This document shows positions 27,871 to 38,710 of a DNA stretch of 64,000 nucleotides, piece after piece (within the stretch, counting starts at the first letter, position 1; each line of letters opens with the position of its first letter). A model generated the notes under the pieces. It was not told the DNA's origin, did not search any database, and saw only the letters and a program-made list of their open reading frames with translations. Source of the stretch: Deltaproteobacteria bacterium (GTDB lineage Bacteria; Myxococcota; UBA727; VGSZ01); contig JACOUT010000005.1 in NCBI GenBank assembly GCA_016177705.1, positions 94,374-158,373 of the forward strand, read 5' to 3'. A program made the position numbers and the translations under genes.

Positions 27871-28200
27871 GTGACCGAGGAAAACCGCCGGCGCCACCCG
27901 CGCGTCGACATCCCCTTGCTCGTTCAATACCGCTTCGGAGCGCTCGAAGAGTTCCGCACCGACTACGCGCTGAACGTGTCACGCTCGGGGCTGTTCATCA
28001 GCACGGACGAGCAGCGCCCCGCCGGCACGCGCGTCTACGTGCAGCTCACCACGCGGGACGGTCAGCACTTCCTGCAGGGCGAGGGCCGCGTTGTGCGCAG
28101 CGCGGAGGGCGGGCACGCCATCGAGCTGGTCGGCTTCGACGAGGCCGCCCAGCAGGTGTTGGAGCGGCTGGTGCAAGAGGCCCTGGCGCGACGGGCCTGA
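27871..28200 (+). CDS. PilZ domain protein (putative c-di-GMP receptor)
   Basis: The PilZ signature RRHPRVDIPLLVQYRF...DYALNVSRSGLFIS (RxxxR...DxSxxG) is present. Confidence 0.75.
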   Translation: MTEENRRRHPRVDIPLLVQYRFGALEEFRTDYALNVSRSGLFISTDEQRPAGTRVYVQLTTRDGQHFLQGEGRVVRSAEGGHAIELVGFDEAAQQVLERLVQEALARRA

Positions 28201-28207
28201 CCAGTAG

Positions 28208-28231
28208 CCCCCCGCGCTTGACCGCGGGTTT
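28208..28231 (+). terminator. possible weak intrinsic terminator after the PilZ gene
   Basis: The hairpin is CCCGCG-cttgac-CGCGGG followed by TTTG. Confidence 0.3.
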
Positions 28232-28275
28232 GCCCGACGGCTAGCGTGCACCGCAACTTGCTTCCGAGGTGACGG

Positions 28276-28995
28276 ATGACGTCGACGTCGTCGAACGCGC
28301 GCGCGCGCCAGATCGTGGATCTCCTGAAGGAGGTCCCACTGTTCGCCGGCATGACCGACGACGATCTGGCTCGGCTGAGCCTGCTCATCACCGAGAAGCA
28401 CTACCCGCGGGACACCGTGGTGGTGTCGGCCACCGACCCGGGTGACGCCCTCTACATCGTCGCCGAGGGCGAGGTGAAGGTCTCGCTCTGGTCCGACAAC
28501 GGGCGGGAGATCATCCTGTCCACGCTCGGGCCGGGCAGCTTCTTCGGCGAGATGAGCCTGGTCGACGGCGAGCCCCGCTCCGCCAACGTGGCCTGCCTGA
28601 CCGACGCGCTGCTGTTGCGCCTTGGCAGGAAGGAATTCCTGCAGGCGCTGCGCAGCTACCCCACCATCGCCATCAACGTCATGACCGAGGTGTGCGTCCG
28701 CCTGCGCCGCGCCGACGAGAGCATCGGCAACCTGGCGCTGCTCGACGTCTACGGCCGCGTCGCCCGCTTCCTGCTCGAGCGCTGCGAGGAGGAGGGCGAG
28801 GTGGTGCCCGAGGGTCACCTGATCAAGAAGATCCCGACGCAGCAGCACATCGCGAGCCGCATCGGCACCAGCCGCGAGACCGTCAGCCGCGCGCTCTCCG
28901 AGTTCCAGCGCCGCGGCTTCATCGAGCAGCGCGGCAAGGGCCTGCTGGTGCGCGAAGGGCTCGACCCCAAGGCGGTGTCCCGCTCGCGGAACTGA
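28276..28995 (+). CDS. Crp/Fnr family transcriptional regulator
   Basis: A cNMP-binding domain (FFGEMSLVDGEPRSANV) is followed by a C-terminal HTH (QQHIASRIGTSRETVSRALSEFQRRG). Confidence 0.85.
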   Translation: MTSTSSNARARQIVDLLKEVPLFAGMTDDDLARLSLLITEKHYPRDTVVVSATDPGDALYIVAEGEVKVSLWSDNGREIILSTLGPGSFFGEMSLVDGEPRSANVACLTDALLLRLGRKEFLQALRSYPTIAINVMTEVCVRLRRADESIGNLALLDVYGRVARFLLERCEEEGEVVPEGHLIKKIPTQQHIASRIGTSRETVSRALSEFQRRGFIEQRGKGLLVREGLDPKAVSRSRN

Positions 28996-30434: not shown

Positions 30435-30498
30435 GGGCACACCAAACCAGAAAACGTCGCCCGCGCCAAACGCGCCCGGCGTACGCGACTGCACCCGG

Positions 30499-30553
30499 GA
30501 AAAAAATCGAGAGCTCGACCACGGCACGGGGGGGACGCCGCGTTCGAGCTCTC
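30499..30553 (-). terminator. rho-independent terminator (minus strand) between the MVP homologue and rph
   Basis: On the minus strand the structure is GAGAGCTCGAA-[22 nt]-TCGAGCTCTC followed by GATTTTTTTCC, an 11-bp stem with a 7-T tract. Confidence 0.5.
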
Positions 30554-30782
30554 ACAAACAGCCGATTTCGACCTGGGGGGAAGTCTTATCAGCCGGCTGC
30601 TTGCACGGACCTACGTAGCACATGACGTGCCATCATCGCCGCCGCGTCCCACCGCGGGCCACAGAGTGCCACTGCGGCAAACTTACCATCACGAACGGGC
30701 GAGTTACTGCCTGAACGCGTGGGGATCTCCTGTTCTGGAAACACCACGAGTGAGGTAAGTTCACCACGGATAGCCCGACTGG

Positions 30783-33219
30783 TCATTCCGCGTCGCCCTC
30801 ACGAGCAGCCGGTTTGGCCGTCCGCAACACCGGCAGTGCAGTCTGCGGAACGAAGTCGAGGAACTTGCGGGCGGTCTCGAGCAGTCCGCGGCCCTCTACC
30901 GCCGCCAGCTCGCCGAAGTTGGCGGACAGCGCCGAAAGGAGCTGGGTGTCGCCCAGCCGCGTCAAGGCCGCGACCAGGTCGGGCGAGAAGGCACCTGCCT
31001 GCCGGACGGCCGCCTCGGTCTGCTCGCGCAGCCGGGCCAGCTCGAGCTCCTGCTCCCGCTGGCGCTCGAGCAGCGCCGCCTCGCTCTCGCGAGCTTGGAT
31101 GAGCAGGCGCTGCTCGCGCACCTCACCTTCGCGCGCGGCGTCGGCGATCTCGGAGGTGCGCTTCAGCTCGAGCAGCCGAGCGTGCTGCGCCTGCCGGTGC
31201 TCTTGCAGCACGAACACGCGTGCTTCCCGCTCCTCGTCGAGCTGCGCGCGCAGCAGCTTGGTTTGGTGCTCGGCCTGCGCGAGTTGGCGATCGATCTCCT
31301 CGAGGCGCCGCCGGTCGGCGAGCGCGCTCTCCTTCTCCGCTACCTCGATGGCGCTCTGAATGGCGTGGAGCTGCGCGCCGGCGAGCAGCGCCCCCACATC
31401 GTCGTCGGTGACCTCGAGCTCGTGCACCTCGACGTCGGTGACGCGCATGCCGTTCTCGGCGAACGACAGGCCCACGCGCGGCGCTTCGGCCTTCTTGCCG
31501 AGCACGGTGTCGCGAACGATCTCGGCGATCTCGGCGCGCAGCCGACGGATGGGGACCTGGCGCGCCGCTGCCTTGATGATCGACGCCGCGTGGTCGCACA
31601 ACAGCTTCACGTAGTTATCGACCGCGAACCAGCGCTCCTCGTCGCCTTCGAAGCTGACGCGGTACTTGACCGTCACCGCCGCCTCGACGAGGTCGCTTGA
31701 GACCACGTCGACCCGATCGCTCACCTGGTTGCCGGCGATCTGCAGGAACGCGGTGTGCAACGGGTGCTCGGTGCTCTTGGGTGTTCCCGTCGACAGGGTC
31801 AGCGCTTCGAGCGTCTCGCCCCACTCGAGCAGCGCGGTTCGCGGACCGCGCACCACGCGCCGAGCGCCGCTCTTGTCGACGATCTGTGCGGCGTAGCCCG
31901 ACCACACATCGACGGACACGACGCCGTCGTACTTGGTGTCGAGCGTGATGGTGCGCGGCGCGACGAAGCCGCGCGCGAACATGTTGACGTTCGACGGTGC
32001 CATCGCCTCTCGCGCGGCCGCGCTCGGACCCGGCATCGGCGGGGGCACGGCAATGTCCTTGCGCGGCGCCGCGACGGGCGGCGGCGCGGCTGCCGGCGCG
32101 CGTCGCAGCGCGCGGTTGACGGCCAGCGCCTCGTCGTTGGCGGGATAGAGGAGCGCGCACTCGCGGTCGGCGAGCACGCGCCGCGTGATCACCTCGCGCC
32201 GCGGATCGGGCAGGAACATCGTGGGGCCGCGCTTGAGCGCGATCTCGCCGCTCAACCGATTGAGCACGTAGCGCCCCTCGCCGGCCGGGATGGCGATGGC
32301 GTGGTGCACCTCGGTCATCTCGCTCTTGATGACGGCGTGCTCGTCGCGCGGGAAGTAGATCTTGTTCTTGCCGGTGAGGAACAGCTCCTCGCCCTCGGCG
32401 TGCGCCACGCCCTCCTCGTCGAGGTAGGGCGCGATCACCTTGACGTGCAGGCCGGTGATCTCGGAGAGCTCGATGGCGCGCTTCTTTCGTCCGCCTTCGT
32501 CGACGAAGCGCTGCTCCGGCTCGGGGAACACTACCGCCTCGCCGCGCAGGTAGCGCTTCTTGCCGTCGTCGCCCACCAGCACGCAGTACTCGAGGCGCTG
32601 CAAGGTCACTGCATCGCGCACGTACCTGCCGTCGTCGTCGGGCAGCACCTCGACGCCGTTCGGCGGCATGTAGAAGGAGACGTCGGTGCCGCGGATGACA
32701 CGCTTGTCCCCGATGTCGAAAGAGACGTCGTCGCCGACCACGTCGACGCCGAGCACGGCGGCGCGGTCCTTGTTGGCCTCGTCGGCGTCGAAGACGCGGA
32801 TCAACAGGTACTGGTTCATCTGCAGGCGGTGGCCCTCGACCACCTTGACCATCTGCCCGGGCCAGAGCGCGAAGCTGACCGGCCCCGGCAGGATGACCTT
32901 CTTGCCCACTTGCAGGTCGACGAGCCCGGAGGCGACGCCCGGCTTCGGGTGCATGCCGTCCCGCCCCGGGTTCTTCAGCACCATGTACCAGTTGGCCGGC
33001 GCGGTCGCGAACAGCTGCACGGCGGAGGCGAGCTCGGCGGCGGCGTCGAAGCGCTTGGTGAGCGCGTTGAAGATCACCGGCTGATCGGTCTGCGCCAGGC
33101 TGGTCTTGTTCGGGCCTACGTAGCAGTTGATGTGGCCCTTGGTGGTGTCGAGCACGTACGCGTATTCGTTGGGCGAGAGCACGAGCTCGCGCTCGCGCGG
33201 GGGACGGCGCTCTTCCATG
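30783..33219 (-). CDS. major vault protein (MVP) homologue
   Basis: ATG at 33219 with GGAGG 7 nt upstream. The N-terminal half holds MVP repeats collinear with eukaryotic MVP (YAYVLDTTKGHINCYVGPNKTSLAQTDQPVIF versus human [31 protein letters not shown], and ALWPGQMVKVVEG versus PLYPGEVLEKDI). The middle is a shoulder/SPFH-like region (FAVDNYVKLLCDHAASIIKAAARQV) and the C-terminus is a long coiled-coil cap-helix-like segment. Total length is 812 aa. Confidence 0.8.
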
Positions 33220-33336
33220 GTGTTCCTCCGGTGCGGAGGGTGCGTGAGCACGGCACGCGCCAACGTCAGGTCGCGTTCGGACGCGGCCGGCGCGCTGACC
33301 GGCGCGCCGTTTGGGTGCAGCCTGATCGAGCCTGGC

Positions 33337-35238
33337 TCAGCCGCCGGGGATGAACGGCAGGATCGCGCGCAGGTCTTCGTCCTGGAACGTAAGGCCGACA
33401 CCAATGAAGTAGTCGAGCCCGAAGCCGGTGCGCGGATCGTAGAGCTGCAAGCCACGCGGGCCCACGCTGTTGAGCGCGTCGTCGAGGCCCGCCGAGACGT
33501 ACAGGTGCGGGATCGGCTGCGCCTTCACCAAGGTACGCCAGCGCGGCAGGTAGAAGTCCGGCTGGGCGTCGGTGCTGAGCGTGTCGCGCGGACCGCGGAA
33601 GTCGAACACGTCGCTCCTCAGCTCCACGCGGTCGTCGAACAAGAAAAGGTTGGCGCCGACGCCGCCGGTGGTCTCGATGAGCCCTACGCGCAGCACCAGG
33701 AAGTCGAAGAAGCGCTTGGCGAACATGGCGCTGATACGCAGCTGGTTGTCCTCCTCGCGCACGCTCTCGCGGATCACGTTGCCGTCGACGTCGCGCTCGG
33801 TGTAGCGCTCGAGGCGCCCGCCGTCGTCGACCACCTCGAGCAGGTAGTACTTGTCGGGCTTCGGCTGCAGCCGCAGGCTGAGCGTGGTGGTGTTGGCGTC
33901 GCGGTTGACGTTGTACCAGCTGCCGATGTCGACGTGCGTCTCCATCGAGGTCAGGCTCGAGACGAAGTCGGCGGCGCCCGACACCGCGCTCTCCACCTTG
34001 TCGGCGATCTTCTCGTCGGTGAGCAGGCGGCCGACCGTGCCCTCGCCGCGCTCGACGCGCCCCATCACCTCCGAGAGCGACGCCAGCGACCGGTTCAGCT
34101 CCTCGATGGTGGTCTTGAGCGACTTGACGCCCTGGCCGAGCTCCTCCTCGTTGTCGCCGAGCACGCCCTTGAGTTGCTCCGTGACGACGGAGAGGTCGTC
34201 GGCGACCTTGCGCACGCTCGCCATGGTGGCGCGGATGTCGCCGTCACCCTCAGCGGTACCGCCGTCGGGGCCGACGCCGGCGCCAGGGCCCGAGCCGGTC
34301 ATGTCGGCGAGATCGGCGGTGATGCGCTGCACGTTCGCGACCAGCTTGTTGAAGTCGCTGTCGTCCTTCGCGATCTTGCCGTCGATGTCGCGCACCGCCT
34401 TCTCGACCGTGTTCACCGCCTTGCGCAGGTCGGTCATCACCAACTCGTAGATCTCGCCGATCGGCTTGGTGTCCTCGTCGCCGGCGATGAAGCGGTTCAG
34501 CTCCGCGGTGATGCCGTTGATGTTCGAGGCGATGCCGCCGATCTCTTGATCGATCTTGTGCGTGATGCTGGCGAGGTCGCCGATGATGCCCTCGGCCTTG
34601 CTGAGCAGGGCCTCGTTGCCGGTGGCCGAGCGGACGTTGATGACGCGCTCGCCTCCCTTGAACATGGTCTTGGACGGCCCCGGCTCGAGGAAGAGCGCGT
34701 TGGCGCCGAGCAGGCCGAGGCTGCCCTTCTTGACCCAGGAGTCGACCGGCACCGGCCACTGCTTGCTGACCGCGAAGTCGATGCGCGCCACCCGCACTCG
34801 TTCCTGCTTCGCCGCCTCGATGGCTTCGCGCACTCGCGCCTGGTCCCACTTTTCCTCGGCCACTTGCGCGCGCGTCGGTAGCGTGCCCCGCTTCTCGAGG
34901 TTGGCGATGACGCCGTCGAAGTCGTCGTGCGGCTTGACCGTCAGGTCGGCGCCGAGCGGGCGATCGACCCGCTGCAGCACGCGGGCCTCCAGGTCGACGA
35001 CGTACTCGCCGATCGGGACCTCGACCAGCGTGGCCTCGTTGATCTTGCCGGCCTTGAGGCCGGCGATGCTGATGATCGACTTGGCGTTGATGCCGGTCGC
35101 GTCGGTCAGGTACGCGTAGTAGTCGACGGAGTCGCGCGCGAAGCTGACCTTCTCCGACGACAGGTAGAAGATCACGCCGATCACCGTGCCGACGATGATG
35201 ACGAGACCGGCGCGGAACGCGTTGGCCGCGTCGCTCAC
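33337..35238 (-). CDS. MCE-family (MlaD-like) substrate-binding protein with a long coiled-coil extension
   Basis: An N-terminal TM segment precedes an MCE domain (IAGLKAGKINEATL...), followed by an extended helical region. The gene lies downstream of mlaF/mlaE homologues. Confidence 0.85.
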   Translation of the reverse strand: MSDAANAFRAGLVIIVGTVIGVIFYLSSEKVSFARDSVDYYAYLTDATGINAKSIISIAGLKAGKINEATLVEVPIGEYVVDLEARVLQRVDRPLGADLTVKPHDDFDGVIANLEKRGTLPTRAQVAEEKWDQARVREAIEAAKQERVRVARIDFAVSKQWPVPVDSWVKKGSLGLLGANALFLEPGPSKTMFKGGERVINVRSATGNEALLSKAEGIIGDLASITHKIDQEIGGIASNINGITAELNRFIAGDEDTKPIGEIYELVMTDLRKAVNTVEKAVRDIDGKIAKDDSDFNKLVANVQRITADLADMTGSGPGAGVGPDGGTAEGDGDIRATMASVRKVADDLSVVTEQLKGVLGDNEEELGQGVKSLKTTIEELNRSLASLSEVMGRVERGEGTVGRLLTDEKIADKVESAVSGAADFVSSLTSMETHVDIGSWYNVNRDANTTTLSLRLQPKPDKYYLLEVVDDGGRLERYTERDVDGNVIRESVREEDNQLRISAMFAKRFFDFLVLRVGLIETTGGVGANLFLFDDRVELRSDVFDFRGPRDTLSTDAQPDFYLPRWRTLVKAQPIPHLYVSAGLDDALNSVGPRGLQLYDPRTGFGLDYFIGVGLTFQDEDLRAILPFIPGG

Positions 35239-36056
35239 ACGTTCTTCTCCTTCCAGGTCGCGAAGAAGCGCTGCACGAAGGGATGCTCCGACGCGAGCAT
35301 AGCGCCCTTCAGCCCGCGGCAGACAATCTCGCCGTCGTAGACGAAGATGATCTCGTCCGCGATCTTGAAGGCCGAGGCGATGTCGTGGCTGATGACGATG
35401 CTGGTGACGCCGAGCTTGTGCTTGGCCTCCAGGATCATCTCGTCGACCTGGTCGGTGGTGATGGGGTCGAGGCCGGTGGTCGGCTCGTCATAGAGCACGA
35501 TCTGCGGCTCGAGCGCGACCGCGCGCGCCAACGCCACGCGCTTTCGCTGGCCGCCCGAGATCTCGGCCGGGTAGCGCGGCCCGAGCGCGTCGACGTCGAG
35601 CGAGAAGACGTTGAACAGCTCGCGCACGCGCGCATCGAGCGCCTCGCCCTTCAGCTCCTTCCGGTGCTCCTTGAGCGGGAAGGCGACGTTCTCCCAGTTG
35701 CTCATGGAGTCGAACAGCGCGCCATTTTGGAAGACCATGCCGAACTTGGAGCGCGTCGTCTTCAGCTCGAGCTTGGACAGCCGCGTGATGTCCTGACCGT
35801 CGACGATGACCGAGCCCGAGTCGGGCTTGAGCAGGCCGATCATGTGCTTCATCAGGACGCTCTTGCCCATGCCGGAGCCGCCGAGGATCACCAGGATCGA
35901 CCCGCGCGGCACCGCGACGTTCATGCCCTTGAGCACCTGACGCGAGCCGAAGGTCTTCTTGAGGTCGACGACGCGCAGCGCCACGTCGTGCTCGACGGCC
36001 GGCGGTGGTTCGCCGGTGCGCGCGGTCTCTGGCTGCTTGACGACCTGCGTGGTCAC
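35235..36056 (-). CDS. ABC transporter ATP-binding protein (MlaF-like)
   Basis: Walker A GGSGMGKS, the ABC signature ISGGQRKRVALARA and Walker B LYDEPTTGLD are present. Confidence 0.9.
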   Translation of the reverse strand: MTTQVVKQPETARTGEPPPAVEHDVALRVVDLKKTFGSRQVLKGMNVAVPRGSILVILGGSGMGKSVLMKHMIGLLKPDSGSVIVDGQDITRLSKLELKTTRSKFGMVFQNGALFDSMSNWENVAFPLKEHRKELKGEALDARVRELFNVFSLDVDALGPRYPAEISGGQRKRVALARAVALEPQIVLYDEPTTGLDPITTDQVDEMILEAKHKLGVTSIVISHDIASAFKIADEIIFVYDGEIVCRGLKGAMLASEHPFVQRFFATWKEKNV

Positions 36057-36074
36057 GGGCTGCTCAGGTGCTCC

Positions 36075-37031
36075 TCATTTGGGCAAGGCGTCGAAGCGAA
36101 TCCAGGAGTGGATCAGCGGGTCAAGGATCTCGGCCAACAGGTAGGTGCTGACCAGCACACACACGTTGGAGATGACGACGGTGCGGGTGGCGGCCTCGCC
36201 GACGCCGCGCGCGCCGCCCGAGGCGTGGAAGCCTTGGTACGACGCGATCAGCGCGATCTGCAGGCCGAAGATCGCGCCCTTGATCCAGCCTTCGTAGAAG
36301 TCGTCCGGGTCGAGCGCTTGCCAGGTCTCGTAGAAGAAGACACCGGGGTCCACACCTTCGCGCATCACCGCCATCACGTAGCAGCCGCCGTAGCCGGCAG
36401 CGCAAAAGACGATGGTGAGCAACGGCATCATCAACGTGGTGGCGATGGCGCGCGGCACCACCAGGTACTGCACCGGCTCCACCGCCAAGGTGGAGAGCGC
36501 GTCGATCTGCTCGGTGACGCGCATGGTGCCGAGCTCGGTCGCCATGCCCGAGCCCGAGCGCCCGGCGACCATCAGCCCCGTCAACACCGGGCCGAGCTCG
36601 CGCACCAGCCCGAGCATCGTGGTCGGTCCCACCAGCGCCTCGGCGCCGAAGCGCCGGAAGCCCTGCAGGCTCTGAAAGCCGAAGCTCAGCCCGGTGAACA
36701 GGCCCGTCAGCATGACGATGAACAGCGAGCCGAAGCCGACGTCGCGCATGTGGCGCGCGAGCTGCCCCCAACGAAAGGGGCGGCGCGGCAGCCAGAACGC
36801 GACGTCGAGGCAGAACAGCCCGAGGCTGCCGACCTCCTCGATGAAGGTCACCGCCGGGCGGCCGACGGCAACGACGGTGTCGACCGCCAGCGCGCGCGCG
36901 CGCGACGGCGCCGCCACGACCTGCGTCGGCTCGTTACCGCCGGTGCTTGGGCTCGTGCTCAACGCAGCGACGTTCCCGCGGCCCACCGCCATCGTCAAGA
37001 AGCGGGGCGACGTCAGACAACCCGTCGTCAA
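36075..37031 (-). CDS. ABC transporter permease (MlaE-like)
   Basis: Polytopic permease with MlaE-like segments (GFGSLFIVMLTGLFTGLSFGFQ; EQIDALSTLAVEPVQYLVVPR). The start could instead be at 36992. Confidence 0.8.
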   Translation of the reverse strand: MTTGCLTSPRFLTMAVGRGNVAALSTSPSTGGNEPTQVVAAPSRARALAVDTVVAVGRPAVTFIEEVGSLGLFCLDVAFWLPRRPFRWGQLARHMRDVGFGSLFIVMLTGLFTGLSFGFQSLQGFRRFGAEALVGPTTMLGLVRELGPVLTGLMVAGRSGSGMATELGTMRVTEQIDALSTLAVEPVQYLVVPRAIATTLMMPLLTIVFCAAGYGGCYVMAVMREGVDPGVFFYETWQALDPDDFYEGWIKGAIFGLQIALIASYQGFHASGGARGVGEAATRTVVISNVCVLVSTYLLAEILDPLIHSWIRFDALPK

Positions 37032-37063
37032 CGGTGCAGGGAGAGGTGGTAGGCTGCCGCCCC

Positions 37064-38710
37064 ATGGCCACCACCGGCGACAAGCCGCGGCAGATCGGCA
37101 TCGATCTCGGCACCACCAACACGCTGGCGGCGTGGACCGACGGCCGCGTGCCGCGCGTCATCCCCACCGAGAAGGGCGGCAACCTGCTGCCGAGCGTGGT
37201 CGCGTTCGCGGGCGATCGCGTGATGATCGGCCAGCCGGCCAAGGAGCAGTTGCTCATCAACCCGGCCGACACCATCTACGGCAGCAAGCGCCTGGTGGGG
37301 CGGCCCTTCCACTCGAGCCAGGTGAAGTCGCTGCAGAAGCGCTTCCCCTACGAGGTGGTCGAGGGCGATCGCGGGCTGTGCGCGGTCAAGGCTGGCGGGC
37401 GCGTCCACGACTTGGCCGAGATCTCGACCATCCTGCTGCAACAGATCGCACGCTACGCGGGCGCGCACCTCGGCGGCGCGGTCGAGGGCGCGGTCATCTC
37501 GGTGCCGGCCGACTACCCGCTCACGCAGCGCGAGGCGGTGCGAAAGGCGGCGCGCGCGGCCGGCCTCGACGTCTGGCGCCTGGTCAACGAGCCGACCGCG
37601 GCCGCGCTCGCCTATGGGCTGTCGCGCAACCTCGATCAGAAGATCCTGGTGTTCGACCTGGGCGGCGGCACCTTCGACGTCTCCATCCTCGAGATCGGCG
37701 GCGGCACGTTCAACGTGCTCGCCACCGGCGGCGACAGCTCGCTCGGCGGCGTCGACTTCGACATCCGTCTGTCGGACCACCTGATCGAGCGCTTCGAGGC
37801 CGACGAAGACCTGTCGATCAGGGACGAGGCGGTGGTGGTGCAGCGCGTGCTCAACGCGGCCGAGCTCGCAAAGATCGACCTGTCGCTGTTGCAGCACGCC
37901 GAGGTGCGCCTGCCTTTCGTGACGCAGCGGCGCGGCAAGCCCGTCGACCTGCTGCTGCACGTCAGCCGCCAACAGCTGGTGCAGCTCACCGAGGATCTGA
38001 TCGAGCGGTGCGCGCGCACCGTCGACGAGGTGCTGGCGCACGCGGGCCTCGCGCACAAAGACATCGACGAGATCCTGCTCGCCGGCGGCCAGACCCGCAT
38101 GCCGGCCATCCAGGCGCGCCTCGAGAAGCAGTTCGGCAAACCGCCCAAGAAGGGCGTCAACCCCGACGAGGTGGTGGCGCAGGGCGCGGCGCTGTTGGCG
38201 CGCTCGTTGTCGGGGGGCGGCGAGGTCCGGCTGCTCGACATCATCTCGCTGCCGGTGGGCATCGGACGCAGGAGCGCCACCGGCGTCACCTTCGAGCCCG
38301 TGTTGGCGAGGAACGCGACGCTGCCGGCGCAAGGCATGGTGGAGGTGAGCACGCTGGTCGACGGCCAGACGGCGATCGAGGTCGATCTGTTCCAAGGGTT
38401 GTCGCGCGACATCAAGGCCGCCGACTACCTCGGCACCGTCAAAATGGACGTGCCGCCCGGGCCCGCGGGTGCACGCGCCATGACGGTGACGGTGCACGTC
38501 GACGCTGAGGGCCTGCTCGAGGTTCGCGGCGTCGCGCCCAGCTCGCCGGCGCGGCGCCTGCCGGTGGTGGCCAAGCACCCGACCCTGCGCATGGACGCGC
38601 CGCCGGCCCACCTGAGCGACGCGTCCTCCGGCTCAATCCCGATCCCCCGGGGAGTGCAGGGAACTGCCGCTGCCAAGCCCGGTCTGCTCCAGCGCCTCTT
38701 CAAGCGATAG
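37064..38710 (+). CDS. Hsp70-family protein (DnaK-like ATPase plus beta-sandwich, no helical lid)
   Basis: The N-terminus IGIDLGTTNTLAAW, DLGGGTFDVSIL and VFDLGGGTFD mark an actin-like Hsp70 nucleotide-binding domain. A substrate-binding beta domain follows, but no C-terminal alpha-helical lid. Confidence 0.8.
   Translation: MATTGDKPRQIGIDLGTTNTLAAWTDGRVPRVIPTEKGGNLLPSVVAFAGDRVMIGQPAKEQLLINPADTIYGSKRLVGRPFHSSQVKSLQKRFPYEVVEGDRGLCAVKAGGRVHDLAEISTILLQQIARYAGAHLGGAVEGAVISVPADYPLTQREAVRKAARAAGLDVWRLVNEPTAAALAYGLSRNLDQKILVFDLGGGTFDVSILEIGGGTFNVLATGGDSSLGGVDFDIRLSDHLIERFEADEDLSIRDEAVVVQRVLNAAELAKIDLSLLQHAEVRLPFVTQRRGKPVDLLLHVSRQQLVQLTEDLIERCARTVDEVLAHAGLAHKDIDEILLAGGQTRMPAIQARLEKQFGKPPKKGVNPDEVVAQGAALLARSLSGGGEVRLLDIISLPVGIGRRSATGVTFEPVLARNATLPAQGMVEVSTLVDGQTAIEVDLFQGLSRDIKAADYLGTVKMDVPPGPAGARAMTVTVHVDAEGLLEVRGVAPSSPARRLPVVAKHPTLRMDAPPAHLSDASSGSIPIPRGVQGTAAAKPGLLQRLFKR

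What the first reader, a model, noticed from the sequence alone, without database searches (positions are those of the whole stretch)
30783..33219. Full-length bacterial homologue of the eukaryotic major vault protein, directly downstream of an MCE (Mla-like) ABC transporter operon
The 812-aa product is collinear with eukaryotic MVP across all three parts: N-terminal MVP repeats, a shoulder/SPFH-like region and a C-terminal coiled-coil cap helix. The motif-level matches are quoted in the feature evidence. Vaults are considered eukaryotic organelles, and intact MVP genes in bacteria are rare. The gene has its own strong RBS, sits 118 nt downstream of the MCE gene (33337-37031 operon: mlaE-mlaF-MCE) and is followed by a rho-independent terminator (30499-30553). 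It has no vPARP or TEP1 partner nearby. Whether it assembles into a vault-like shell, and whether it works with the lipid-trafficking MCE system, is open.
Basis: partly seen in the sequence, partly recalled or inferred. Interest (0 to 1): 0.85.

Follow-up and report, generated by a model that had tools for sequence, protein, structure and literature searches.

The report
Bacterial major-vault-protein homologue, known family
This is an intact gene for a bacterial relative of the protein that builds eukaryotic "vault" particles, but such bacterial relatives have been described since 2013, occur in hundreds of species, and its position next to a lipid-transporter operon looks incidental.

Summary

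It is not novel as a kind. Bacterial MVP-like proteins were reported by Daly 2013 and Sokolskyi 2019. I find more than 5,000 relatives and at least 456 species genomes. It is native to its genome (RSCU r=0.98, dN/dS~0.14).

The MCE adjacency is not conserved. It occurs only in two ~70%-identical relatives and is absent from the 89% relatives, and no partner gene is conserved family-wide.

New here:
- A sigma-54-type -24/-12 element 44 nt upstream is conserved in 14 of 17 loci of the subclade, with 0 of 17 on the control strand. This argues for an independent, activator-dependent transcription unit.
- The "terminator" belongs to a conserved ~107-nt two-hairpin, C-rich-loop RNA candidate that has its own sigma-54-like promoter.

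Cage assembly is inferred, not shown.

The parts
30783..33218 (-). MVP-like CDS, 811 aa plus stop
   Evidence: It is 100% identical to NCBI MAG Deltaproteobacteria HYS27_10300, annotated 'hypothetical protein'.
32169..33197 (-). Six N-terminal beta-repeat modules (aa 8-350), each of about five strands
31932..32168 (-). Two short helices (aa 351-373) plus a Pro/Ala-rich disordered linker (aa 375-429). This occupies roughly the position of eukaryotic repeat R8.
   Evidence: pLDDT 32-51. The 55 linker residues include 12 Pro and 13 Ala. It is among the least conserved regions in the family, at 0.27.
31737..31931 (-). Seventh repeat (aa 430-494), equivalent to eukaryotic R9
   Evidence: Pfam Vault_3 at aa 437-493, E=1e-6. 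The profile aligns to human MVP 455-519.
31404..31736 (-). Shoulder / SPFH-like domain (aa 495-605)
30996..31403 (-). Cap-helix: a single predicted helix, aa 606-741
   Evidence: AF2 H606-741. The profile aligns to human MVP up to residue 788. The composition is rich in A, E, L, R and Q.
30786..30995 (-). C-terminal segment (aa 742-811). Residues 742-797 are conserved within the bacterial family (consensus AFSPxLVAALxRLGD...GRGLLETARKFLDFVP).
   Evidence: Near-invariant residues listed. Low-confidence helices in AF2. No detectable similarity to any PDB chain, including the MVP cap-ring.
33223..33228 (-). Shine-Dalgarno GGAGGA
   Evidence: CGGAGG is invariant in four aligned loci.
33247..33262 (-). 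Sigma-54-type -24/-12 promoter-like element, TGGCGCGTGCCGTGCT. The inferred transcription start is near 33236.
   Evidence: It scores 10 of 12 against TGGCACG-N4-TTGCW. The equivalent element lies at -37 to -78 in 14 of 17 loci of the >=53%-identity clade, against 0 of 17 on the reverse strand, 0 of 65 in distant loci and 2 of 902 CDS windows. It is also present in L086. In this window alone such matches occur at the chance rate.
30500..30553 (-). Intrinsic terminator hairpin with a U7 tract. It is also hairpin 2 of the RNA element below.
30497..30606 (-). Adjacent element, probably a separate unit: a conserved ~107-nt two-hairpin RNA candidate with C6 and C7 loops
   Evidence: It is nearly invariant across window, L004, L005 and L085, whereas third codon positions of the MVP gene are only 71-74% identical between window, L004 and L005. 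Rfam hits are sub-threshold only: 6C at 23 bits against a threshold of 47.
30617..30632 (-). Sigma-54-type -24/-12 element, TGGCACGTCATGTGCT (11 of 12). It sits so that transcription would start at the 5' edge of the RNA element.
   Evidence: The core ATGGCA.G.....TGC.A is invariant in window, L004 and L005 within an otherwise variable stretch. L085 has TGGCACGGCTGGTGCT.

Best explanation
The gene encodes a soluble, cytoplasmic member of the bacterial MVP-like family.

The most likely mechanism is self-assembly. By analogy with vaults and SPFH cages, many copies would associate side by side through the shoulder domain and the long cap helix to form a ring or dome. The seven beta-repeat modules would then form a thin barrel wall, shorter than the nine-repeat eukaryotic one. 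The conserved first repeat could join two halves into a closed shell.

The gene works as a stand-alone unit, with no conserved partner gene. In this Myxococcota subclade it is transcribed from its own sigma-54-dependent promoter. Expression would therefore be switched on by an enhancer-binding activator rather than by read-through from the MCE operon.

Shown here: homology, fold, domain order, native codon usage, purifying selection, lack of conserved neighbours, and the conserved promoter-like element. Inferred: oligomeric cage formation, half-to-half pairing, sigma-54 dependence in vivo, and any cargo.
For: Homology and collinearity:
- Pfam shoulder and Vault_3.
- The family profile hits only MVPs, E~3e-38, with profile 204-337 aligned to human 275-409 and 427-743 aligned to 455-788.
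- The model shows 6+1 five-stranded repeats, an alpha/beta shoulder and a 136-residue helix.

Soluble: the highest Kyte-Doolittle 19-residue window is 1.18, and the N-terminus has no signal peptide.

Functional and native: dN/dS is 0.13-0.15 against the 89% relatives, GC3 is 0.917, and RSCU correlates at r=0.978 with neighbouring genes.

Stand-alone: clustering of the flanks of 82 loci gives no conserved neighbour, only generic kinase and ABC families.

Own promoter: the 118-nt leader is conserved in L004 and L005, where the upstream gene is different. The sigma-54 element is conserved in 14 of 17 loci, with 0 of 17 in the control.

Plausibility of assembly in bacteria: human MVP forms vault-like particles in E. 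coli (PMC9778704, abstract, seen). Daly 2013 predicted docking for bacterial homologues (PMC3762200).
Against: - No oligomer was modelled or observed; the tools predict single chains only.
- There are about seven repeats rather than nine, and a disordered Pro/Ala linker replaces R8. The geometry could therefore differ, or closure could fail.
- The C-terminal segment has no detectable similarity to the eukaryotic cap-ring.
- The human NAD+/ADP-ribose pocket is not conserved. Of ten mapped residues only K506 (K481 here) is kept (alignment, with residues from PMC12280208).
- The sigma-54 match in this window is at chance frequency on its own.
- No enhancer-binding protein (GAFTGA motif) is encoded in the 64-kb window.
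- No terminator was found between the MCE gene and this gene, so some read-through co-transcription remains possible.
Confidence: 0.6

Rival explanations
1. The protein is a membrane-associated, SPFH-type half-dome that works physically with the adjacent MlaE-MlaF-MCE lipid transporter. It would do this, for example, by organising or gating the inner-membrane complex from the cytoplasmic side.
For: - The gene lies 118 nt downstream of the MCE gene on the same strand, with no terminator detected between them.
- The arrangement Hsp70 / MlaE-F-D / MVP-like recurs in two ~70% relatives.
- The shoulder has the SPFH fold.
- Eukaryotic vaults were recently seen bound to membranes (PMC13100048).
Against: - The adjacency is absent from the 89% relatives L004 and L005, where homology begins exactly at the MCE stop codon.
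- It is also absent from L087-L089 and from the other ~78 loci.
- The protein has no TM or amphipathic anchor and no signal peptide.
- There is no Pfam Band_7 hit at E<=1.
- A conserved independent promoter-like element lies in the gap.
Confidence: 0.07
2. The protein does not build a cage. It acts as a monomer or small oligomer, for example as a scaffold or as a nucleotide- or ligand-binding sequestering protein, as proposed in silico for bacterial MVP-like proteins.
For: - Sokolskyi 2019 predicted GMP/CMP pockets in the shoulder region of Enhygromyxa and Saprospira proteins.
- Human MVP binds NAD+/ADP-ribose at the shoulder.
- The P-K pair of the keyhole loop (P480, K481) and N497 are invariant in the bacterial family.
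- The repeat number is reduced and the linker is disordered.
Against: - Nine of ten mapped human pocket residues are not conserved.
- The 136-residue exposed single helix and the SPFH shoulder are hallmarks of ring-forming assemblies in every solved relative.
- The first repeat, which pairs the halves in vaults, is among the most conserved parts.
Confidence: 0.22
3. The gene is a recent horizontal acquisition from a eukaryote, or eukaryotic contamination of the assembly.
For: Vaults are classically eukaryotic. Some cyanobacterial MVPs group within Amoebozoa and were attributed to transfer (Daly 2013).
Against: - Identity to eukaryotic MVPs is only ~19-21%, against 45-92% to hundreds of bacterial proteins.
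- GC3 and RSCU are indistinguishable from those of the neighbours.
- The gene is embedded among bacterial genes with conserved synteny.
- It has a bacterial RBS and a sigma-54-type promoter.
Confidence: 0.02
4. The protein is part of an anti-phage defence or other mobile accessory system.
For: - The family has a patchy distribution across many phyla.
- MVP-like genes have been reported in gut phages.
- A giant-virus protein matches over its full length.
Against: - There are no PADLOC or PHROGs hits.
- The neighbours are housekeeping genes (rph, rdgB, Mla, Hsp70), not defence islands.
- No associated gene is conserved across loci.
Confidence: 0.05

Closest known systems
Bacterial MVP-like proteins described in silico. 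Daly et al. 2013 (PMC3762200) list Corallococcus, Plesiocystis, Microscilla, Saprospira, Flexibacter and Herpetosiphon. Sokolskyi 2019 (10.1101/872010) covers Enhygromyxa salina, Saprospira and Microscilla.
   Same: It is the same family. The window protein matches a gene of Enhygromyxa salina DSM 15201 at 45% identity over residues 8-788 (L083), and Cytophagales and Microscillaceae genes at 42-43%. It has the same architecture and the same lack of known partners.
   Different: It is a new sequence from an uncultured Myxococcota/'Deltaproteobacteria' MAG, deposited as 'hypothetical protein'. The conserved sigma-54-type promoter is specific to the subclade and, as far as I could find, has not been noted before.
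Eukaryotic major vault protein (rat, human and rabbit vault cages, e.g. PDB 4V60, 9BW5, 9Z4W)
   Same: The domain order is collinear: beta repeats, then SPFH-like shoulder, then a long cap helix. These are the top structural matches and the only PDB sequence-profile matches. The motifs of the first two repeats align.
   Different: - Only ~20% identity.
- About seven repeats instead of nine.
- A disordered Pro/Ala linker where R8 lies.
- The NAD+/ADP-ribose pocket is not conserved.
- The C-terminal segment is unrelated in sequence to the cap-ring.
- No PARP4, TEP1 or vault RNA nearby.
- Assembly is unproven.
SPFH/Band-7 cage proteins (HflK/C, prohibitin, stomatin, flotillin, QmcA, erlin)
   Different: There is no membrane anchor, and no Pfam Band_7 hit at E<=1. 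About 500 residues of MVP repeats lie N-terminal to the SPFH domain.
Viral MVP-like proteins: gut phages ctOa11 and ct2Ri15 (Santos 2023), and Harvfovirus A0A3G5A4K1
   Same: Full-length MVP-like architecture outside eukaryotes. The Harvfovirus protein (802 aa) aligns over 888 columns, E=1.7e-12.
   Different: There is no phage context here, and no PHROGs hit.
6C RNA (Rfam RF01066). This comparison applies to the neighbouring RNA element only.
   Same: Two adjacent hairpins, each with a run of six or more C in the loop.
   Different: The score is 23 bits against a gathering threshold of 47. The known family is actinobacterial. The element here has a sigma-54-type promoter and is seen only in four close relatives.

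Membership tests
Major vault protein family (Pfam/InterPro MVP) | MVP shoulder domain (PF11978) | tested here: met
   65.2 bits against a cut-off of 25, E=7e-18, aa 497-605, covering profile positions 3-118 of 118.
Major vault protein family (Pfam/InterPro MVP) | N-terminal MVP repeat domains (PF01505, PF17794-6) with the five-stranded antiparallel beta fold | tested here: met
Major vault protein family (Pfam/InterPro MVP) | Long cap-helix after the shoulder | tested here: met
   Predicted single helix at aa 606-741. The profile aligns through human MVP residue 788.
Major vault protein family (Pfam/InterPro MVP) | Nine repeats (R1-R9), as in eukaryotic MVP | tested here: not met
   6+1 repeat modules are counted from the AF2 strand pattern. 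An ~80-residue helical and disordered segment lies in place of R8.
Major vault protein family (Pfam/InterPro MVP) | Cap-ring C-terminal region | tested here: inconclusive
   The C-terminal 75 aa give no MVP hit by phmmer at E<=10. The model has low confidence there. The segment is conserved within the bacterial family.
Major vault protein family (Pfam/InterPro MVP) | NAD+/ADP-ribose pocket of human MVP (R504, K506, R507, P508, H509, R511, L517, D521, F522, W545) | tested here: not met
   Through the alignment these map to T479, K481, S482, T483, E484, P486, Q493, N497, Q498 and V521. Only the Lys is identical. The residue list comes from PMC12280208. This rests on a sequence alignment only.
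Vault particle (organelle) | Assembly of MVP into a closed, two-halved, high-symmetry cage | not testable with these tools
   Only single-chain prediction is available. No experimental report on any bacterial MVP-like protein was found.
Vault particle (organelle) | Minor components: PARP4/vPARP, TEP1, vault RNA | tested here: not met
   Genes from 26.4 to 41.3 kb are PilZ, Crp, RdgB, RNase PH, MlaD/F/E, Hsp70, amylase and hypotheticals. No conserved neighbour was found in 82 loci. There is no Rfam family hit in the window. The rest of the genome was not available.
SPFH / Band-7 family | SPFH fold, followed by an oligomerising helix | tested here: met
SPFH / Band-7 family | N-terminal membrane anchor, and a match to Pfam Band_7 (PF01145) | tested here: not met
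   No Band_7 hit at E<=1. The maximum hydropathy window is 1.18, so there is no TM segment.
Sigma-54-dependent promoter | GG-N10-GC with TGGCAC-N5-TTGCW flanks, at a fixed short distance upstream of the gene, conserved across orthologous loci | tested here: met
   14 of 17 loci score >=10 of 12 at -37 to -78. The reverse strand gives 0 of 17, distant loci 0 of 65, and CDS windows 2 of 902.
Sigma-54-dependent promoter | Dependence on RpoN and an enhancer-binding protein | not testable with these tools
   There is no GAFTGA-type activator in the 64-kb window. An FHA-Sigma54_activat-HTH_8 gene lies 4.7 kb upstream in L089 only.
6C RNA (RF01066), for the neighbouring RNA element | Score at or above the Rfam gathering threshold | tested here: not met
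   23 bits against 47, E=0.72.

The most novel reading that the evidence does not exclude
This Myxococcota protein assembles in the bacterial cytoplasm into a genuine vault-like closed shell that is shorter than the eukaryotic one and has no minor components. It is produced on demand from a sigma-54-dependent promoter, for example during stress or development. It may be co-regulated with the adjacent sigma-54-driven C-rich-loop small RNA. That would make it a prokaryotic vault organelle, and a tractable model for the ancestral function of vaults.
Probability: 0.35. Interest if true: 0.8.

Novelty: new member of a known kind. Interest (0 to 1): 0.4.

Why it matters
The function of vaults has been unknown for about 40 years, and reviews still state that vaults are exclusive to eukaryotes. 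Bacterial MVP-like proteins are a possible route to the ancestral function, but nobody has shown what they assemble into.

This locus does not change what is known about their existence. It adds three usable facts for experiments on cultured relatives such as Enhygromyxa or Plesiocystis:
- The gene stands alone, so there is no obligate partner to co-express.
- The link to the lipid transporter is not conserved across related genomes.
- In one Myxococcota subclade the gene carries a conserved sigma-54-type promoter. This predicts inducible expression and suggests where to look for the inducing condition.

Tried and rejected
- Rfam on the whole window at gathering thresholds gave nothing. A permissive scan of the 3' intergenic region gave only sub-threshold 6C, Scr3202 and ctRNA hits.
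- PADLOC and PHROGs gave no hits for the protein. NCBIfam gave nothing meaningful.
I relied instead on the precomputed Pfam column.
- The afdb50 fold library was not available.
- The C-terminal 75 aa searched against PDB sequences showed no similarity to the MVP cap-ring. A resemblance I recalled from memory ('PVLR' near the C-terminus) is therefore not claimed.
- De novo clustering of flanking ORFs in 82 loci looked for a conserved partner. The largest clusters were histidine kinases and response regulators, ABC ATPases and kinases, at inconsistent positions, so they were rejected as partners.
- hhalign between my seven hand-cut repeat segments gave only weak similarities, best E~1e-4. The repeat claim therefore rests on structure.
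- A metagenome scan for the RNA element found one further true copy (L085) and one chance match (L084). nhmmer found no copy in the other 80 loci. With four near-identical copies there are no compensatory changes, so the RNA structure cannot be tested by covariation.
- The GAFTGA search for a sigma-54 activator in the window was negative.
- The simple sigma-70 and terminator scan found no promoter, and it missed the long-stem terminator.
Full report
**Observation**

On the minus strand an ORF runs from ATG 33218 to a stop codon ending at 30783. It has 812 codons including the stop, so the product is 811 aa. The mechanical ORF extends further, to a GTG at 33455, but that extension overlaps the MCE gene. 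It is not supported by homologues, which begin MxERRxRERELVL.

GGAGGA lies at 33228-33223. The MCE gene's TGA is at 33339-33337, which leaves exactly 118 nt between the two genes.

Pfam confirms the upstream genes on the same strand as MlaE, an ABC ATPase and a 633-aa MlaD-domain protein. The downstream genes are RNase PH and RdgB/Ham1.

The hairpin plus U7 tract at 30553-30500 exists as described.

**Identity**

Pfam gives MVP_shoulder (E=7e-18) and, marginally, Vault_3.

A profile built from 64 bacterial homologues (alignment A1) hits only major vault proteins among 177,635 PDB sequences, with E from 3e-38 to 1e-34. The register is collinear. Profile positions 204-337 align to human MVP 275-409, and positions 427-743 align to 455-788. 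This covers repeat R9, the shoulder and the cap helix. A single-sequence search also aligns residues 66-285 to mouse MVP 51-259.

The AlphaFold2 model (mean pLDDT 76.7) contains, in order:
- six five-stranded beta modules (aa 10-345);
- two short helices;
- a disordered Pro/Ala-rich linker (aa 375-427);
- a seventh beta module (aa 435-493);
- an alpha/beta shoulder (aa 497-603);
- one continuous helix (aa 606-741);
- low-confidence C-terminal helices.

**Differences from eukaryotic MVP**

- There are about seven repeats, not nine.
- A helical and disordered segment occupies the place of R8.
- The conserved C-terminal segment shows no sequence similarity to the cap-ring.
- Of ten residues lining the human NAD+/ADP-ribose pocket (PMC12280208), only K506 (K481 here) is retained in the alignment.
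- The protein has no TM segment or signal peptide. It also has no Band_7 Pfam hit.

**How common and how new**

The exact protein is already in NCBI as a "hypothetical protein" of a Deltaproteobacteria MAG.

The word-indexed search found 5,585 relatives, many of which JGI names "major vault protein". The exhaustive search of 50%-identity representatives found 1,099 clusters at E<=1e-3 and 574 at E<=1e-30.

Three peptide patterns recovered 456 loci among 185,579 species genomes. These span Myxococcota, Bradymonadia, Cytophagales, Sericytochromatia, Riflebacteria, Chloroflexota, Spirochaetota, Planctomycetota and others. They include Enhygromyxa salina DSM 15201 at 45% identity.

Bacterial MVP homologues were reported and modelled by Daly et al. 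2013. They were discussed by Sokolskyi 2019 and Santos et al. 2023. I found no experimental study of any of them. This is a new member of a known, uncharacterised family.

**Native or transferred**

GC3 is 0.917. RSCU correlates with the pooled neighbouring genes at r=0.978, within the range of control genes. dN/dS is 0.13-0.15 against the 89% relatives. Together with about 20% identity to eukaryotic MVPs, this excludes recent acquisition from a eukaryote.

**The MCE link**

Among the related loci, the Hsp70 / MlaE-F-D / MVP-like arrangement occurs only in L001 (the same contig as L012) and in L086. Both are about 70% identical to the window protein.

In the closest relatives, L004 and L005 (89%), homology to the window begins exactly at the MCE stop codon (window 33339). 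A different gene lies upstream, while the downstream rph-rdgB-crp-pilZ block is kept. L002, L003, L087, L088, L089 and the remaining loci lack the MCE operon.

De novo clustering of all flanking ORFs found no family-wide neighbour. The adjacency is local synteny, not a conserved functional coupling.

**A conserved promoter**

The conserved 118-nt leader contains TGGCGCGTGCCGTGCT at 33262-33247. This matches 10 of the 12 specified positions of the sigma-54 consensus TGGCACG-N4-TTGCW, with the GG and GC in the correct register.

On its own this is not significant. The window has 10 such matches against 10.6 expected.

However, the equivalent element lies 37-78 nt before the start codon in 14 of 17 species-representative loci of the >=53%-identity clade, whatever the upstream gene is. 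The controls are 0 of 17 on the opposite strand, 0 of 65 in more distant loci, and 2 of 902 in 200-nt coding windows. L086 also has it, and L087 and L088 have weaker versions.

I infer an independent, activator-dependent transcription unit with a start near 33236. No activator gene is present in the window.

**The "terminator"**

The 350-nt region between this gene and rph folds unusually well (z=-4.2). Its last ~107 nt (30606-30500) form two hairpins with C6 and C7 loops, and the second hairpin is the terminator.

This block is almost invariant in window, L004, L005 and L085, whereas third codon positions of the MVP-like gene are only 71-74% identical between window, L004 and L005.

Immediately upstream lies TGGCACGTCATGTGCT (30632-30617; 11 of 12 to the sigma-54 consensus). 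Its GG/TGC core is invariant within an otherwise variable stretch. It is placed so that transcription would begin at the 5' edge of the conserved block.

This looks like a separate sigma-54-dependent small RNA gene. It is confined to this narrow lineage and scores below threshold for the 6C RNA. I make no claim that it is a vault RNA.

**Mechanism**

The best-supported reading is a soluble protein that self-assembles through its SPFH shoulder and cap helix, as every solved relative does. The repeat modules would form a shorter barrel wall. The highly conserved first repeat is available for pairing two halves. Assembly of human MVP in E. coli has been reported (PMC9778704), so the bacterial cytoplasm is permissive.

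Cage formation, sigma-54 dependence and cargo are inferences.

The rivals, with my estimates, are:
- an MCE-coupled membrane dome, 0.07;
- a non-cage ligand binder or scaffold, 0.22;
- eukaryotic transfer, 0.02;
- a defence system, 0.05.

**Verdict**

The finding is ordinary in kind: it is a new member of a known family. Interest is moderate (0.4), because the family remains experimentally untouched and bears on the unsolved function and origin of vaults.

Noticed in passing
window 30497-30632 (- strand): This is a candidate sigma-54-dependent small RNA. A -24/-12 element, TGGCACGTCATGTGCT (30632-30617), is followed by a ~107-nt block (30606-30500). The block forms two hairpins with C6 and C7 loops, and the second hairpin is the intrinsic terminator. 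It is nearly invariant in four close relatives (window, L004, L005, L085) and absent from 80 other MVP-like loci. The only Rfam similarity is a sub-threshold match to 6C RNA.
   Followed up: partly
window 30732-30774 (- strand): A 30-nt box, GTGGTGAAC(A/T)TACCTCACTCGTGGTGT, starts 9 nt after the MVP-like stop codon. It is invariant in window, L004 and L005 and recognisable in L085, within otherwise variable sequence. It lies about 100-140 nt upstream of the RNA's sigma-54-like promoter, so it could be an activator binding site. This was not tested.
   Followed up: no
window 33339 and 30787; loci L001, L004, L005: Synteny breaks fall exactly at the borders of the MVP-like unit. The 89% relatives share everything downstream of window 33339 but not the MCE operon. 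The 70% relatives share the Hsp70-MlaEFD-MVP block, but their homology stops at the end of the MVP-like coding sequence (window 30787), so the sRNA-rph-rdgB block is not shared.
   Followed up: yes
window 27871-28995 (+ strand): A PilZ-domain protein and a Crp/Fnr-type cNMP-binding regulator sit side by side. The regulator is 98-99% identical in L004 and L085, whereas the MVP-like protein is 89-92% identical. This is unusually strong conservation.
   Followed up: no
window 33337-35238 (- strand): The MCE protein is long (633 aa). It has one N-terminal TM anchor, a single MlaD domain (aa 37-117) and a ~500-residue mostly helical C-terminal part. Orthologues carry faint 'Helical_needle' and Aq_493_lipo Pfam hits. 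This suggests a periplasm-spanning needle type rather than a classical MlaD.
   Followed up: no
window 37061-38710 (+ strand): An Hsp70/DnaK-like gene is transcribed divergently from mlaE. The same divergent pairing is kept in L001 and L086.
   Followed up: no
BFVD entry A0A3G5A4K1 (Harvfovirus sp.): A giant-virus 'prohibitin domain-containing protein' of 802 aa aligns with the model over 888 columns (Foldseek E=1.7e-12). It may be a full-length MVP-like protein in a giant virus.
   Followed up: no
L089 1-1325: In one 60%-identical relative, an FHA-Sigma54_activat-HTH_8 enhancer-binding protein gene lies 4.7 kb upstream of the MVP-like gene. That locus, however, lacks a good -24/-12 match at the annotated start.
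   Followed up: no
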